Shown here piece after piece: positions 5,361 to 12,144 of a DNA stretch of 18,856 bases; within the stretch, counting starts at the first letter, position 1, and every line of letters begins with the position of its first letter. This stretch comes from a virus (Duplodnaviria; Heunggongvirae; Uroviricota; Caudoviricetes): IMG/VR virus record IMGVR_UViG_2630968500_000001; one strand, given 5' to 3'. The notes below the pieces were generated by a model that saw only the letters and a list, made by a program, of their open reading frames with translations, did not search any database and was not told the DNA's origin. The position numbers and the translations under genes are program-made.

Positions 5361-5738
5361 TTACCCTGCTATTTTTTGAGCCAGATGAGCCTGCAATTTA
5401 TAAATGTTTGCTCCTTTACTGAACTGTTTTTTTATCGGTTCTGCAATACCAGAAATCCATATCTTCATTTCAGCATCAAGATCAAGATGCCCGGCGGTTT
5501 CAATAGAAAAGTTTGTCACAGATTTATAAGGAATCGAACGATACTCTACTTTTTTCCCTGTGACACCCTGCTTATCAATAAAAATTAACCTTCTGTTAGT
5601 CAGAATAATTTGGTCACGAATGAGTTTATAGGCAAGTTCGACATTTTCTCCCTCACCTAAAACAGCCCCTAATTCCTGTTGTGCATCTGATGCATTAATT
5701 TCACCGGCATTACCTATAATGGCATGTAACAGACCCAT
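5361..5738 (-). CDS. Moron-encoded small soluble protein, bacterial PH-domain-like (bPH_1/DUF1696-like); function unknown
   Basis: Preferred start is the ATG at 5738-5736 with AAGGGA 6-7 nt upstream, giving about 125 aa (MGLLHAIIGNAGEINASDAQQELGAVLGEGENVELAYKLIRDQIILTNRRLIFIDKQGVTGKKVEYRSIPYKSVTNFSIETAGHLDLDAEMKIWISG...). The longer track ORF (from 5819) would overlap the tape measure gene. Hand-counted GC is about 35% over 5401-5640 versus 52-62% in flanking 60-bp samples. The TNRRLIFIDKQGVTGKK...IPY...ETAGHLDLD pattern matches my recollection of bPH_1 proteins. Confidence 0.55.
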   Translation of the reverse strand: MGLLHAIIGNAGEINASDAQQELGAVLGEGENVELAYKLIRDQIILTNRRLIFIDKQGVTGKKVEYRSIPYKSVTNFSIETAGHLDLDAEMKIWISGIAEPIKKQFSKGANIYKLQAHLAQKIAG

Positions 5739-5774
5739 AGATTTCCCTTCAGTTGATAACAAACTTAAAGACAA

Positions 5775-5801
5775 ATTATATCTGGTTCCGTCATCTGCCA
5801 A
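5775..5801 (-). promoter_or_regulatory. Candidate sigma70 promoter for the moron gene
   Basis: Minus strand has TTGGCA (5801-5796), a 15-nt spacer, then a perfect TATAAT (5780-5775), about 37 nt upstream of the moron ATG. The -35 element overlaps the last codons of the tape measure gene. The spacer is shorter than optimal. Confidence 0.35.
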
Positions 5802-7746
5802 TATGCGTATAGCCAACATCGTGATTTATATCAAAACCGCTGGATCGCGTTTCCATAACCCGCATACCCGGAGGCGAATTCACAAAAGAGACCTTGATCT
5901 CACCGTCAACTTTTGGCGCAGAAGCTTTGTTAATCATGAAGGGATTCGGGCCTGTAGCATCGGAGGCGTTGTTTGACTGAGCCGGATCTACCGCCGGATA
6001 AGGTGTGTATCCCCGCGCCGGTATTCCCGTCCCATAAGCATCATAAGCACCCGCGCCCCACTGCGCCGAGTTAATGGCATCGACCGTGTCACCGGAGGCG
6101 TTGTTTGACTGCGCCGGATAAGGAGTGTATCCCCGTGGCGGTATTCCCGTCCCATAAGCATCATAAGCACCCGCGCCCCACTGCGCCGAGTTAATGGCAT
6201 CGACCGTGTCACCGGAACTGTCGGTAAACCACTCAATAATTGGCTTCAGCTTGTCCCACATATCCTGAAACCACTTAACAACCGGTCCCCAGTTATTGAT
6301 TACCATCCCCAGCGGCGACCAGGCAAAAACCTTCTTCAGAAGTTCCCAGCCAGCCTCAAAATAAGGACCAATGGTTTCCCAGAGCTTCTTGAAATAAGGT
6401 CCAACAACATCCCAGTTAGTGATAATTAATCCCGCAGCCAAGGCAATCGCCGTCGCAATCATGCCAATCGGCGTCATCGACATGATCCTGCTGACGATAC
6501 TGATGGCACTGCCCACGCCCATCAATCCCAGTTTCAGAATCGCAAGACCGGCAGCAAGCCCGACGACGCCGCGAATAACCCGGGGATTTTCATCCGCAAA
6601 CTTCGTGAATTTTTCCCCCAACTCCCCCAGCCATTGCGTGATATTTTTGGCGTCACCAGAAAATGCGCCGCCAATAGCCGCAAGGCCGTTAGTTGCGGTC
6701 CCCGTCATTGCCTCCCACAGGTTGGACAGCGTACCAAGCTGTGCCTGAACACGTTTATTCAGGCTGGCCTGTTTATTCATCTTCTGCTGGATCTGATCGT
6801 AACCATCCTTTCCTTTATCGATTAGTGCATTGACCACCTGAAGGGTTTCGGCATCATCACCAAATATTGCCTTAAGTACGCCTGTTCGCTTAACGTCGGT
6901 CAGTTTTCGCAGCTTTGCCAGTTGCCTGAACATGTTATCAAGACCGCCAAAACTTCCTTTGCCGTCAGTAAAATCGAGCTGTACCCCGAGTTTCTGGCGG
7001 GCCATGACTTTATTGACGTCCCTGATTTTCTTAACGCTTAATCCGGACTGGATAACTTTTCGCAGGGCATTACCTGCCGACTCCCCGTTCATCCCCATCT
7101 GATCCATCATGACGCTGATGGGAGCAAGGCTCTGTGCAGCCTGAAGACCGTCCTTGTTCACCATCTTCAGAACAGAACTGGTTTTAGTGAAGAAGGACAA
7201 CATGTTGGTATCGTCAACGCCCAGATAAAACGCCTTCTGGATAGTGTCGAACAGCCCCATCATGTCTTCTGACGCCGTTCCGGTAGCATCCTGCATCTTT
7301 GCGGCAAACTCAGCAGCCGCTTCCGGTGTTTTTTTCAGTTGTACCGCAAGATAAGCTGTCGCTTTACCCACACCACCCAGAATGTTTTCTGCCGGGATCC
7401 CCTGACGCACCAGCATCTGCATCATGTTCTGGAAATCAGCCGTTGTACCGGGTAGCTGGTTACCCAGGCCAATAGCCAGTTTATTGATGTCCTGAAAGCT
7501 CTTTCCAACCTCGCCGTTCGCATCCATCATGGCGACTTTCAGCCCGGTGGCGGCGTTTTCCTGATCGGCATAAGATTTCAGGGAAAGCGTCAGACCCGCT
7601 GCCAATCCGCCACCAAGCGCCAGCCCACCCTGTGACGCTTCTTCCGCCTGGCGTTTAAATCCCCGGATTTTCTTTTGCATTTTCGACAGCGCGGGAGAAA
7701 GCCTGTCGACACCGGTGATCAACGCCTTAAGCTCAAATTCAGCCAT
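5791..7746 (-). CDS. Tail tape measure protein
   Basis: 651-aa ORF directly downstream of the frameshifted chaperone pair. Has a central hydrophobic segment (…GLAAGLAILKLGLMGVGSAISIV…TAIALAAGLIITNW…) and a C-terminal tandem repeat. Confidence 0.85.
   Translation of the reverse strand: MAEFELKALITGVDRLSPALSKMQKKIRGFKRQAEEASQGGLALGGGLAAGLTLSLKSYADQENAATGLKVAMMDANGEVGKSFQDINKLAIGLGNQLPGTTADFQNMMQMLVRQGIPAENILGGVGKATAYLAVQLKKTPEAAAEFAAKMQDATGTASEDMMGLFDTIQKAFYLGVDDTNMLSFFTKTSSVLKMVNKDGLQAAQSLAPISVMMDQMGMNGESAGNALRKVIQSGLSVKKIRDVNKVMARQKLGVQLDFTDGKGSFGGLDNMFRQLAKLRKLTDVKRTGVLKAIFGDDAETLQVVNALIDKGKDGYDQIQQKMNKQASLNKRVQAQLGTLSNLWEAMTGTATNGLAAIGGAFSGDAKNITQWLGELGEKFTKFADENPRVIRGVVGLAAGLAILKLGLMGVGSAISIVSRIMSMTPIGMIATAIALAAGLIITNWDVVGPYFKKLWETIGPYFEAGWELLKKVFAWSPLGMVINNWGPVVKWFQDMWDKLKPIIEWFTDSSGDTVDAINSAQWGAGAYDAYGTGIPPRGYTPYPAQSNNASGDTVDAINSAQWGAGAYDAYGTGIPARGYTPYPAVDPAQSNNASDATGPNPFMINKASAPKVDGEIKVSFVNSPPGMRVMETRSSGFDINHDVGYTHIGR
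5961..6216. repeat. In-frame tandem direct duplication (132 bp + 120 bp) inside the tape measure gene
   Basis: Copy 1 at 5961-6092 and copy 2 at 6093-6212 (the match continues 4 nt to 6216) are identical except for 3 substitutions (6004/6124, 6016/6136, 6018/6138) and a 12-bp indel (5980-5991). The encoded peptide SGDTVDAINSAQWGAGAYDAYGTGIP(P/A)RGYTPYPA...QSNNA is repeated. Confidence 0.9.
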
Positions 7747-7921
7747 GTGTGCGTTTCTCCTGCTCTATCCTGTTTGCCTGACTGACCAGCAAGGGAATTT
7801 CACTGATCGGCATATTCAGCAATTCGAAGGGATTAATGCGCCAGTAACTGGCGCAGTCAAAGAAGCGATCAGTGAGGTATTCAGCCGTCAGGCCTGGAGG
7901 AAAAAACCGGCCACAAGCCAC
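7739..7921 (-). CDS. -1 frame extension of the tail assembly chaperone (lambda gpGT analogue); expressed only as a frameshift fusion
   Basis: The 60-aa ORF is in the -1 frame relative to 7888..8157, has no convincing RBS of its own, and overlaps the slippery site. Its end overlaps the tape measure start (7746) by 8 bp. Predicted fusion is about 140 aa. Confidence 0.6.
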   Translation of the reverse strand: MACGRFFPPGLTAEYLTDRFFDCASYWRINPFELLNMPISEIPLLVSQANRIEQEKRTHG

Positions 7922-8157
7922 GCCGCTGCATTCAGGTCTGCCGGAGACATCTGGTCGACAGAGCTTTGCGGCACTTTCGCCAGCCGCACGATGTATTTCG
8001 ATACCACATGCGCCAGAAGTCTGACGGACTCATCCTGATTCATCTGGTAGGGATATCCCAGCTCGCGGACATCTTTCCCGGTGGGCTCATCAAACTCCAG
8101 TACGGAGAGTGTCTCGCCATGAGCGGTAATCGGTTTCTTTAACTCAAGCTCTTTCAT
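7888..8157 (-). CDS. Tail assembly chaperone (lambda gpG analogue; short product)
   Basis: 89-aa ORF between the tail tube and tape measure genes. It ends just past a slippery heptamer; stop TGA at 7890-7888. Confidence 0.7.
   Translation of the reverse strand: MKELELKKPITAHGETLSVLEFDEPTGKDVRELGYPYQMNQDESVRLLAHVVSKYIVRLAKVPQSSVDQMSPADLNAAAWLVAGFFLQA
7900..7906 (-). other. Programmed -1 ribosomal frameshift slippery heptamer T_TTT_TTC
   Basis: Minus strand reads GCC GGT TTT TTC CTC CAG GCC TGA in the zero frame (…AGFFLQA*). The heptamer T TTT TTC fits the X_XXY_YYZ rule, and a -1 slip continues into CCT CCA GGC… (PPGLTAEYL…), which is the downstream ORF. Confidence 0.65.
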
Positions 8158-8513
8158 TACTGGTAATCCCCTTCTTCACCGTGGAACTCAAGATCGACCG
8201 TGCCTTCTTCGGCATTATGGTTCGCTTCGCCGTGCAGCCAGGCAGACGACAGTACATAGACCTGACCGTTCGCCAGCTCGGCAGTGATGGTCATCTCATC
8301 AGACGAGGTGATTTTGCTCACCGGAAAATTCTTCGGCACCTTGAAGGTCCCTTTGACATAAGGTGCACGGTGAGTTTCCTTGCGGTCCACTGAACCGTCC
8401 AGGCCGATGATGTCATCGTTAACCGTTTTGTTCATGGGCACCTCAATGCCGCCGGTCAGCGATAGCTGCTGACCGTCAATTTTGAAATAACAGGTTCCCC
8501 CGATACGGGCCAT
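8157..8513 (-). CDS. Tail tube protein (Mu-like contractile tail)
   Basis: 118-aa ORF immediately after the sheath gene (overlapping start/stop at 8513) and before the chaperone. Size and position are typical of Mu-type tube proteins. Confidence 0.7.
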   Translation of the reverse strand: MARIGGTCYFKIDGQQLSLTGGIEVPMNKTVNDDIIGLDGSVDRKETHRAPYVKGTFKVPKNFPVSKITSSDEMTITAELANGQVYVLSSAWLHGEANHNAEEGTVDLEFHGEEGDYQ

Positions 8514-11940: not shown

Positions 11941-11952
11941 ACTCAGCCCTCT

Positions 11953-12144
11953 TTACTGGTCGTGGCTTTTTTTCTCTTTTGTCGCTTTACTGCTTTTTGC
12001 ACTGGTTCCGCGCTCTGCTAACCCGGCCTGAAGTGCAATCTCCTGCACCCGGGCAGGAAGCGCCCCGTCGTCATACTCACCGGCCCGAATGACCTCAACA
12101 CGCATACCGTCCGGTGACCATTTCAGATCTTGTTTCAGGATCAT
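11953..12144 (-). CDS. Hypothetical small protein (63 aa) between the major capsid and connector genes
   Basis: ORF with a weak SD-like GGGTGA upstream and a Lys/Ser-rich C-terminus (…TSAKSSKATKEKKSHDQ). GC content is phage-like. Real expression is uncertain. Confidence 0.35.
   Translation of the reverse strand: MILKQDLKWSPDGMRVEVIRAGEYDDGALPARVQEIALQAGLAERGTSAKSSKATKEKKSHDQ

What the first reader, a model, noticed from the sequence alone, without database searches (positions are those of the whole stretch)
7739..8157. Programmed -1 frameshift in the tail assembly chaperone pair (gpG/gpGT analogue) with slippery heptamer T_TTT_TTC
The 89-aa chaperone ORF ends 4 codons after the heptamer TTTTTTC (7906-7900, zero-frame codons GGT TTT TTC). 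The -1 frame stays open for a further 53 codons and ends 8 bp inside the tape measure start. The arrangement and a canonical X_XXY_YYZ site are both read directly from the sequence. A conserved frameshift immediately upstream of the tape measure gene is established for dsDNA tailed phages. Gene callers will report two separate small ORFs or miss the second.
Basis: partly seen in the sequence, partly recalled or inferred. Interest (0 to 1): 0.5.

Follow-up and report, generated by a model that had tools for sequence, protein, structure and literature searches.

The report
Tail chaperone -1 frameshift, P2-type
An SfV-like prophage of E. coli makes a short and a long tail-assembly chaperone from one start codon by a -1 slip on TTTTTTC just before the tape measure gene; this is a well-known phage device that public annotations of this phage group have simply left out.

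Summary
On the minus strand an 89-aa chaperone gene (8157-7888, Pfam Phage_TAC_7) reads GGT TTT TTC CTC CAG GCC TGA. The heptamer T_TTT_TTC (7906-7900) is in the X_XXY_YYZ phase. The -1 frame adds 53 codons and stops at 7741-7739, 8 nt inside the tape measure gene, giving a 139-aa fusion.

It is not chance. T_TTT_TTY is kept in phase in the 20 genome loci retrieved (18 distinct after duplicates) and in 5 sequenced phages, down to 40% protein identity. The -1 segment is conserved as protein (775 synonymous against 665 non-synonymous codon differences, versus 138/1292 and 130/1280 in the other frames). Its stop always sits at the tape measure start. Most relatives have no start codon for it.

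Geometry and slip-site position match phage P2 E/E+E', the experimentally established member of the same Pfam family.

No public record examined annotates the shift, so the only new thing is an annotation fix. Open points are ribosomal versus transcriptional slippage on the T run, and a conserved hairpin 44 nt downstream. Interest is low.

The parts
7888..8157 (-). Tail assembly chaperone gene, short product ('G', analogous to P2 gpE), 89 aa. Its ATG overlaps the tube gene stop (TAATG).
   Evidence: ORF listed and translated. Pfam PF10109 Phage_TAC_7 scores 60.3 bits against a cut-off of 25. PGAP names it 'phage tail assembly protein' WP_000661054.1. The AlphaFold model (pLDDT 82.9) resembles predicted viral tape-measure or tail assembly chaperones, TM 0.6-0.73.
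7900..7906 (-). Slippery heptamer T_TTT_TTC; the zero-frame codons are GG[T TTT TTC].
   Evidence: Read directly. GGTTTTTTCCT is invariant in 16 aligned relatives, while the preceding Ala codon takes all four forms. T_TTT_TTY is in phase in the 20 genome loci and 5 sequenced phages. It falls in the same alignment column as the P2 E/E+E' shift site.
7739..7900 (-). -1 frame extension ('T' segment): 53 codons plus stop TGA 7741-7739. With residues 1-86 of G it gives the 139-aa GT fusion, join(8157..7900, 7900..7739), with base 7900 read twice.
   Evidence: Translation. It is conserved as protein (FDCAxYWRINP...QANRI; invariant A103, W106, P110, A128, R130, I131). Synonymous/non-synonymous codon differences are 775/665 in this frame against 138/1292 and 130/1280 in the others, and third positions vary in 42 of 53 codons. 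It matches phrog_32181 ('unknown function') at E = 4e-40. There is no usable start codon in 14 of 22 relatives.
5791..7746 (-). Tape measure protein gene. Its ATG at 7746-7744 lies 8 nt inside the end of the T segment (ATGGCTGA).
   Evidence: PF10145 PhageMin_Tail, E = 1.1e-26. In the relatives where a tape measure start was found, the -1 stop ranges from a 14-nt overlap with that start to one spacer base before it (most often an 8-nt overlap); one locus had no start called. P2 E+E' overlaps gene T by the same 8 nt.
8157..8513 (-). Tail tube gene directly upstream. It sets the canonical context: tube, then chaperone pair, then tape measure.
   Evidence: PF10618 Tail_tube, E = 3.3e-33.
7837..7855 (-). 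Conserved 8-bp hairpin UGCGCCAG-UUA-CUGGCGCA inside the T segment, 44 nt 3' of the heptamer. Its role is unknown and it is a possible accessory element only.
   Evidence: Local dG is -12.2 kcal/mol, and the 126-nt region folds with z = -3.2. It is kept in 14 of 16 aligned relatives with no compensatory change. The four synonymous stem positions are invariant while the loop position varies.

Best explanation
This is a programmed -1 ribosomal frameshift in the tail assembly chaperone gene of an SfV/SfI-like prophage with a contractile tail.

Most ribosomes translate the 89-aa chaperone and stop at TGA 7890-7888. A minority slip back one base, with tRNA-Phe in the P site (UUU) and in the A site (UUC) of U_UUU_UUC. 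E. coli has a single tRNA-Phe (anticodon GAA), which reads both UUU and UUC, so both tRNAs re-pair fully as UUU UUU (established knowledge). These ribosomes continue for 53 codons and make a 139-aa protein with the same N-terminal 86 residues and a new C-terminal domain. They terminate 8 nt inside the tape measure gene.

By analogy with lambda G/GT and P2 E/E+E', both products coat the tape measure protein, and the rare long form uses its extra domain to recruit the tube protein. The slip rate thereby fixes the ratio of the two chaperones.

Shown here: the anatomy, its conservation, protein-level selection on the -1 segment, the absence of an independent start, and homology to P2 E.

Inferred: that the fusion is made, that the slip is ribosomal, its efficiency, and the chaperone roles.
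For: Anatomy.

Gene context (sheath, tube, Phage_TAC_7, tape measure).

Slip-site conservation: the heptamer T_TTT_TTY is in phase in the 20 genome loci, from 100% down to 40% protein identity (Edwardsiella, Buttiauxella, Citrobacter, Erwinia, Pantoea, Kosakonia, Derxia), and in AH07, F1055, ST64B, phiP27 and SfIV. The Gly wobble base T and the first Phe codon TTT never vary in 16 aligned sequences, although the neighbouring Ala codon takes all four forms.

Placement of the shift: the -1 stop always lies at the tape measure start. The -1 frame opens only 5-16 codons upstream of the heptamer in several relatives, so the shift is confined to about 10 codons around it.

Coding evidence for the T segment: synonymous/non-synonymous differences of 775/665 against 138/1292 and 130/1280 in the other frames, with six invariant residues across 16 fusions.

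No independent translation: there is no ATG/GTG/TTG in the -1 frame upstream of the heptamer in 14 of 22 relatives, and no Shine-Dalgarno where one exists. In the window, the first start codon inside T lies after the conserved FDCASYWRINP block.

No fused form: no natural in-frame fusion turned up among 1.84 billion representative proteins, only 53-70-aa separately called ORFs.

Link to P2: P2 E is in the same Pfam family. P2 has T_TTT_TTG, the same 8-nt overlap with its tape measure gene, and a curated -1 frameshift. A profile of the fusion family aligns with P2 E+E' over 118 columns, E = 5e-5, with the shift sites in the same column.

Motif properties: U_UUU_UUC and U_UUU_UUU are experimentally shift-prone in E. 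coli, at 0.12% and 0.33% alone and 7.6% and 10.2% with a pseudoknot (Sharma et al. 2014, PMC4066793, Table S3).

Background on G/GT frameshifting: PMC5009743.
Against: No protein or ribosome data exist for this phage group in anything I could reach.

The bare motif gives only 0.12% in a reporter, far below the few per cent reported for lambda and P2. No classical stimulator (a structure 5-9 nt downstream, or an upstream Shine-Dalgarno-like sequence) is conserved.

Three of 80 near-identical IMG/VR loci carry GGG instead of GGT, which breaks the X position. In one of them the T6 run is restored one base out of phase, which fits run-length selection better than phase selection.

The site is a homopolymer, so the sequence alone cannot exclude RNA polymerase slippage, which would give the identical protein.
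Confidence: 0.85

Rival explanations
1. Transcriptional slippage. RNA polymerase adds one extra U on the T6 template run, so a fraction of mRNAs carry U7 and encode the same 139-aa fusion by normal translation.
For: The site is a homopolymer: T6 here, T7 in the ST64B/phiP27/SfIV branch and in two distant loci. In L025 the run stays T6 but has moved one base out of the X_XXY_YYZ phase. The bare heptamer supports only 0.12% ribosomal shifting in a reporter. A weak hairpin directly 5' of the run was flagged as terminator-like (7920-7908). By my recollection, that layout is known to promote polymerase slippage.
Against: By my recollection of the literature, efficient slippage by E. coli RNA polymerase needs runs of about 8-9 or more; I did not check this here. 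The upstream hairpin has only 3 G-C and 2 G-U pairs, is not conserved in relatives (alignment), and such hits occur at the chance rate (2 found, 1.0 expected). The phase T_TTT_TTY is kept in all 25 diverse relatives. The homologous P2 site is curated as a translational frameshift (Christie et al. 2002, cited in PMC3091744).
Confidence: 0.08
2. The -1 ORF is an independent small gene (60 aa from GTG 7921), as annotated in ON470584.1 and collected in phrog_32181.
For: A GTG lies 15 nt upstream of the heptamer in the -1 frame. One GenBank record calls it. Gene callers have produced 53-70-aa proteins of this kind in metagenomes.
Against: Fourteen of 22 relatives have no start codon at all in the open part of the -1 frame upstream of the heptamer. 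The others have no Shine-Dalgarno sequence. Conservation of the T peptide begins directly at the heptamer. The GTG arises from the conserved Ala-Trp codons of the zero frame.
Confidence: 0.02
3. An inactivating frameshift mutation in a decaying prophage, or a chance open frame in a non-coding spacer.
For: The window is a chromosomal prophage. PGAP flags another gene in it as frameshifted. A 53-codon open -1 run occurs at 6% of positions by chance.
Against: The same split is present in records deposited as complete phage genomes (SfV, SfI, SfII, SfIV, ST64B, phiP27, AH07) and across genera. No unsplit version exists among 1.84 billion representatives. There is strong synonymous bias in the -1 frame.
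Confidence: 0.02

Closest known systems
Phage P2 gpE / gpE+E' (programmed -1 frameshift at T_TTT_TTG; Christie et al. 2002 J Bacteriol 184:6522, as cited in PMC3091744)
   Same: Both short products fall in Pfam PF10109 Phage_TAC_7. The sizes are similar: 89 and 139 aa here, 91 and 142 aa in P2. Both sit between the tube and tape measure genes of a contractile tail. Both have a U_UUU_UUN heptamer a few codons before the stop, in the same alignment column. Both long forms overlap the tape measure start by 8 nt.
   Different: The last base of the heptamer is C (or T in relatives) instead of G. The -1 segment does not score against the P2 E' model PF06528 and is linked to it only by a profile alignment of moderate confidence (probability 67%). 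Pairwise BLASTP is not significant. The rest of the tail module is Mu/SfV-type, not P2-type.
Lambda gpG / gpGT (G_GGA_AAG; Levin et al. 1993; Xu, Hendrix & Duda 2004, 2013, 2014, as summarised in PMC5009743)
   Same: The logic and position are the same: two chaperones from one start, with a -1 shift just before the stop of the gene preceding the tape measure gene. According to the review, the long form is rare and neither product is in the virion.
   Different: No detectable sequence relationship (no lambda-type family appears). The heptamer and tRNAs differ. Lambda has a non-contractile tail.
Phage Mu gp41 / FS-gp41 (UniProt P0DJY4; -2 frameshift per PMC5009743)
   Same: The tail module is related: sheath and tube of the SfV-like phages are annotated as similar to Mu L and M. 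Mu gp41 scores 24.7 bits against PF10109, 0.3 bits below that family's cut-off of 25 (E = 2.5e-5), so this is only a weak resemblance.
   Different: Mu gp41 is 144 aa and belongs to PF23746. Its -1 frame closes early, and its +1 frame is the one that reaches the tape measure gene. The window's +1 frame closes after 2 codons, so the recoding event differs.

Membership tests
G/GT-type conserved tail assembly chaperone frameshift (Xu, Hendrix & Duda 2004) | Two overlapping ORFs lie between the major tail (tube) gene and the tape measure gene. | tested here: met
   Tube 8513-8157, G 8157-7888, T 7900-7739, tape measure from 7746.
G/GT-type conserved tail assembly chaperone frameshift (Xu, Hendrix & Duda 2004) | [quoted passage not shown] | tested here: met
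   T_TTT_TTC sits 3 sense codons before the stop. It is the only conserved slippery motif in the window of about 10 codons where the shift must occur.
G/GT-type conserved tail assembly chaperone frameshift (Xu, Hendrix & Duda 2004) | The downstream ORF has no translation start of its own. | tested here: met
   No start codon in 14 of 22 relatives, and no Shine-Dalgarno in the rest.
G/GT-type conserved tail assembly chaperone frameshift (Xu, Hendrix & Duda 2004) | The arrangement is conserved among relatives despite sequence divergence, and the downstream frame is under protein-coding selection. | tested here: met
   The 20 genome loci and 5 sequenced phages, down to 40% identity. Synonymous/non-synonymous differences 775/665 against 138/1292 and 130/1280.
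G/GT-type conserved tail assembly chaperone frameshift (Xu, Hendrix & Duda 2004) | Both products are made in a fixed ratio, both are needed for tail assembly, and neither is present in virions. | not testable with these tools
   This needs protein analysis and genetics. No such data for SfV-like phages turned up in the paper library.
Pfam PF10109 Phage_TAC_7 ('E, or 41 or 14') | The score against the family model exceeds the gathering threshold. | tested here: met
   60.3 bits against 25, covering model positions 2-78 of 79.
P2 gpE+E' family | The C-terminal extension belongs to PF06528 Phage_P2_GpE. | tested here: not met
   No PF06528 hit for the fusion or the T segment at E up to 1, while P2 E+E' scores 76 bits.
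P2 gpE+E' family | Full-length homology of the fusion to E+E', with the shift site at the same position. | tested here: inconclusive
   hhalign of 16 fusions against P2 E+E': 118 columns, E = 5e-5, probability 67%, with GFF|P aligned to GFL|V. Pairwise BLASTP gives E = 0.56.
Mu gp41 / FS-gp41 (-2 frameshift) | The extension is encoded in the +1/-2 frame, and the short product belongs to PF23746 Gp41_Mu. | tested here: not met
   The window's +1 frame closes after 2 codons. There is no PF23746 hit. Mu itself shows the +1-frame layout.
Classical stimulated -1 PRF cassette (dnaX / IS3 type) | A stimulatory hairpin or pseudoknot lies 5-9 nt downstream, and/or a Shine-Dalgarno-like element lies 6-17 nt upstream. 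| tested here: not met
   The only conserved structure starts 44 nt downstream. The upstream sequence GCGGCGTGGCTTGTGGCC has no GGAGG-like element. No Rfam match.

The most novel reading that the evidence does not exclude
The conserved 8-bp hairpin 44 nt downstream of the heptamer (7855-7837) is a selected RNA element. It would raise shifting on an intrinsically weak U_UUU_UUC site from a distance, for example by pausing a leading ribosome so that the following one stalls near the slip site. That would be a long-range or collision-type stimulator in a phage tail chaperone gene. An alternative of similar novelty is that the long form is made by RNA polymerase slippage on only six T's.
Probability: 0.1. 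Interest if true: 0.45.

Novelty: new member of a known kind. Interest (0 to 1): 0.15.

Why it matters
The main value is correct annotation. This prophage type is present in about a fifth of complete E. coli genomes: 1086 of 5426 have a match and 896 hold most of the query. It also includes the Shigella serotype-converting phages SfV, SfI and SfII. In every record I looked at, the long chaperone is missing or split off as a 'hypothetical protein', and PHROGs files the segment under 'unknown function'. Adding a join(8157..7900, 7900..7739) CDS with ribosomal slippage would remove an apparent 141-nt gap and one orphan family.

Biologically it extends the P2-type E/E+E' device to tail modules of the Mu/SfV type, while Mu itself uses a different shift. 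This fits the established view that the frameshift is nearly universal in long-tailed phages. It does not open a new question.

Tried and rejected
1. Structure route. I could not submit the fusion sequences to AlphaFold, so I folded only the 89-aa product. Foldseek against the PDB gave nothing (best E = 2.4). A profile search of PDB sequences gave only chance hits. BFVD gave predicted chaperones only. No solved structure exists for this family.

2. NCBIfam has no model for G, T or P2 E. Rfam has no match.

3. Full-length 'fusion' proteins P0001-P0006 from the protein search looked at first like natural in-frame fusions. Their sequences drift between frames at different places and are singletons from assemblies, so I treat them as indel artefacts.

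4. Three repeat proteins (P0123-P0125) in the representative search are spurious summed matches.

5. A 9-bp long-range stem (7874-7866 with 7810-7802) in the window's minimum-energy fold is not conserved.

6. The terminator-like hairpin upstream of the T run is weak, not conserved, and at chance frequency.

7. Literature. Xu et al. 2004, Christie et al. 2002 and the SfV genome paper (Allison et al. 2002) are not held. I therefore could not check whether SfV was already listed in the 2004 survey. Full-text searches found no paper that describes this frameshift in SfV-like phages. The genome-wide E. coli screen of Sharma et al. 2014 lists other prophage chaperone clusters (A_AAA_AAG, G_GGA_AAG) but not this one.
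Full report
**What the window is.** Positions 7600-8300 are 100% identical to the chromosome of E. coli strain G5 (NZ_CP060065.1). They are 98% identical to phages SKA5 and SfI and 97.7% identical to SfV and SfII. All genes of interest lie on the minus strand. Pfam assigns 10009-8513 to the tail sheath, 8513-8157 to the tail tube (PF10618), 8157-7888 to Phage_TAC_7 (PF10109, 'tail assembly chaperone proteins E, or 41 or 14', 60.3 bits) and 7746-5791 to a tape measure protein (PF10145). The finding therefore sits exactly where the conserved chaperone frameshift of long-tailed phages is expected.

**The observation.**
- ATG at 8157. The zero frame ends ...GCC GGT TTT TTC CTC CAG GCC TGA, with the stop at 7890-7888, giving 89 aa.
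- The heptamer T_TTT_TTC lies at 7906-7900 in the X_XXY_YYZ phase.
- The -1 frame reads PPGLTAEY... for 53 codons to TGA 7741-7739.
- The tape measure ATG is at 7746, so the overlap is 8 nt.
- The fusion is 139 aa with junction AGFF|PPGLTAEY.

**Is it chance?** Across the 21 minus-strand ORFs I took as the window's genes (5548 codons) there are six in-phase X_XXY_YYZ heptamers. A -1 run of at least 53 codons starts at 6.1% of positions. The coincidence of the two at the last codons of the gene preceding the tape measure gene is therefore already unlikely, on the order of one in a thousand for a given gene. The +1 frame closes after two codons.

**Comparative evidence.** A scan of one genome per species with a profile of the 89-aa protein returned 20 loci with 100% to 40% identity (18 distinct after duplicates). 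They came from Edwardsiella, Shigella, Buttiauxella, Citrobacter, Atlantibacter, Scandinavium, Kluyvera, Erwinia, Pantoea, Kosakonia, Enterobacter, uncultured proteobacteria and the betaproteobacterium Derxia gummosa.
- Every locus has T_TTT_TTC or T_TTT_TTT in phase at the homologous position, and a -1 frame that stays open 41-49 codons beyond the zero-frame stop.
- Where a tape measure start could be called, the -1 stop ranges from a 14-nt overlap with that start to one spacer base before it; the 8-nt overlap is the commonest.
- A tblastn search of phage genomes with the fusion found two-piece matches in different frames in Edwardsiella phage EPP-1, Pantoea phage AH07, Salmonella phages F1055 and ST64B, phiP27, SfIV and a Burkholderia phage. 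Of these, AH07, F1055, ST64B, phiP27 and SfIV were examined in detail. They carry T_TTT_TTC (AH07) or T_TTT_TTT (the other four) and the same 8-nt overlap with the tape measure start.
- In a 16-sequence nucleotide alignment, GGTTTTTTCCT is invariant. The Ala codon just before it occurs as GCC, GCT, GCG and GCA.

**The -1 segment is a protein.** The 16 distinct fusion sequences align with six invariant residues in the extension (A103, W106, P110, A128, R130, I131) and a motif FDCAxYWRINP...QANRI. Among 11 distinct relatives with no indels (mean 77% nucleotide identity), codon differences are 775 synonymous against 665 non-synonymous in the -1 frame. In the other two frames they are 138/1292 and 130/1280. 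Variable columns number 29, 19 and 42 at codon positions 1, 2 and 3.

**It has no start of its own.** In 14 of 22 relatives the open part of the -1 frame upstream of the heptamer contains no ATG, GTG or TTG. In the others the single candidate lacks a Shine-Dalgarno sequence. In several relatives the -1 frame opens only 5-7 codons before the heptamer, and the zero frame closes 3-16 codons after it. Together this confines the shift to about ten codons around the heptamer.

**No fused version exists.** A search of 1.84 billion representative proteins with the 53-aa segment found only 53-70-aa separately called ORFs, one artefactual fusion and three spurious repeat proteins. The split arrangement is therefore the rule, as expected if both products are needed in a set ratio.

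**Comparison with known systems.**
- *P2 (closest match).* P2 gpE is in the same Pfam family (47.8 bits). The P2 record carries a curated -1 frameshift at T_TTT_TTG, products of 91 and 142 aa, and an 8-nt overlap of E+E' with the tape measure gene T. A profile of the fusion family aligns with P2 E+E' over 118 columns (E = 5e-5, probability 67%), with the two shift sites in the same column. The extension does not reach the Pfam model of P2 E' (PF06528), so homology of the second domain is only suggested.
- *Lambda G/GT.* This is a functional analogue without detectable sequence relationship.
- *Mu.* Mu has a related tail, but its -1 frame closes early and its +1 frame reaches the tape measure gene. 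This agrees with the -2 shift reported for Mu (PMC5009743) and with the UniProt entry FS-gp41 seen.
- *Fold.* The AlphaFold model of the 89-aa protein (pLDDT 82.9) matches predicted viral tail assembly or tape measure chaperones (TM 0.6-0.73). Nothing in the PDB matches.

**Mechanism.** Shown: the anatomy, its conservation, coding selection on the extension, no independent start, and homology to P2 E. Inferred: tandem slippage of the tRNA-Phe molecules from UUU-UUC to UUU-UUU. This is plausible because the single E. coli tRNA-Phe reads both codons (established knowledge), and because H_HH.U_UU.Y motifs are among the most efficient in E. coli (Sharma et al. 2014, PMC4066793).

The bare motif gives only 0.12% in a reporter, against 7.6% with an IS3 pseudoknot (Table S3). 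The review quotes a 30:1 ratio for lambda and two- to three-fold higher efficiency for P2. Either context raises the rate or the ratio here is very low. I found no conserved classical stimulator.

**The downstream hairpin.** The one conserved structure is an 8-bp hairpin 44 nt downstream (7855-7837). Its four synonymous stem positions never vary in 11 relatives, while its loop position and 42 of 53 third positions overall do vary. A post-hoc Fisher test I calculated by hand (no tool call) gives about 0.007. It shows no compensatory change and is absent from the more distant branches, so its role is open.

**Transcriptional slippage.** Slippage of RNA polymerase on the T run would give the identical protein and cannot be excluded from sequence. 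One of three variant loci (L025) keeps a T6 run out of phase, which hints in that direction. Against it, the run is short, and the phase is conserved in all diverse relatives.

**Novelty.** None of the records examined annotates the shift (SfV, SfI, SfII, SfIV, ST64B, phiP27, AH07, F1055, SKA5, and the RefSeq E. coli genomes annotated by PGAP). One record calls the second ORF a hypothetical protein, and PHROGs lists it as phrog_32181, function unknown. Full-text searches found no description of it for SfV-like phages. The 2004 survey by Xu et al. could not be read and may well list it.

The device itself is textbook. I file this as a new, or at least unannotated, member of a known kind. It is ordinary in mechanism and useful mainly as an annotation correction for a prophage found in about a fifth of complete E. 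coli genomes.

Noticed in passing
window 7837-7855 (minus strand): A perfect 8-bp hairpin, UGCGCCAG-UUA-CUGGCGCA, lies inside the T segment 44 nt after the heptamer. It is conserved in 14 of 16 relatives. Its synonymous stem positions are invariant and its loop position varies. It shows no covariation, and it is absent from the ST64B/SfIV branch. P2 has a different hairpin at the homologous place, just 5' of the conserved Trp codon.
   Followed up: partly
L025, L056, L062 (IMG/VR loci), about 2750-2760 in each: Three of 80 loci with an identical 89-aa protein have Gly GGG instead of GGT before the Phe-Phe codons. Two read G_TTT_TTC. One reads GGG TTT TTT CTC, which keeps a T6 run but one base out of the slippery phase.
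   Followed up: partly
L023 (IMGVR_UViG_2541047860_000003), from about 2845: Similarity to the window ends about 100 nt after the heptamer. The T frame then runs into an unrelated ORF of about 500 aa. This is either a rearranged prophage or an assembly chimera.
   Followed up: no
window 5361-5819 (minus strand): A bacterial PH-domain gene (PF08000 bPH_1, E = 6e-48) lies between the tape measure and DNA-circularisation genes. Its longest ORF overlaps the end of the tape measure gene; PGAP starts it later. It carries an in-phase A_AAA_AAA at 5433-5427.
   Followed up: no
window about 11943-12144 (minus strand): PGAP marks a small hypothetical gene between the major capsid and head-tail connector genes as a 'frameshifted' pseudogene in the identical E. 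coli G5 record.
   Followed up: no
L109 (phage Mu) 2553-3132: In Mu gp41 the -1 frame closes 38 nt after the stop, while the +1 frame stays open to 15 nt before the tape measure start. This fits the -2 frameshift reported for Mu, which differs from the SfV-like phages that share its tail type (PMC5009743).
   Followed up: partly
L099/L100 2750-2772 and L104 about 2759-2785: Distant relatives have strong hairpins right after the heptamer: GGGCUCG-GCGG-CGAGCCC, -15.4 kcal/mol, starting 2 nt after it in the uncultured proteobacteria, and a -13.6 kcal/mol hairpin 9 nt after it in Derxia. Stimulators may therefore differ between lineages.
   Followed up: no
proteins P0001-P0006 (metagenome and Logan assemblies): These singleton ORFs of 107-139 aa look like in-frame G-T fusions, but they switch frame at different points and carry homopolymer-type errors. 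They are assembly artefacts that could mislead a search for natural fusions.
   Followed up: yes
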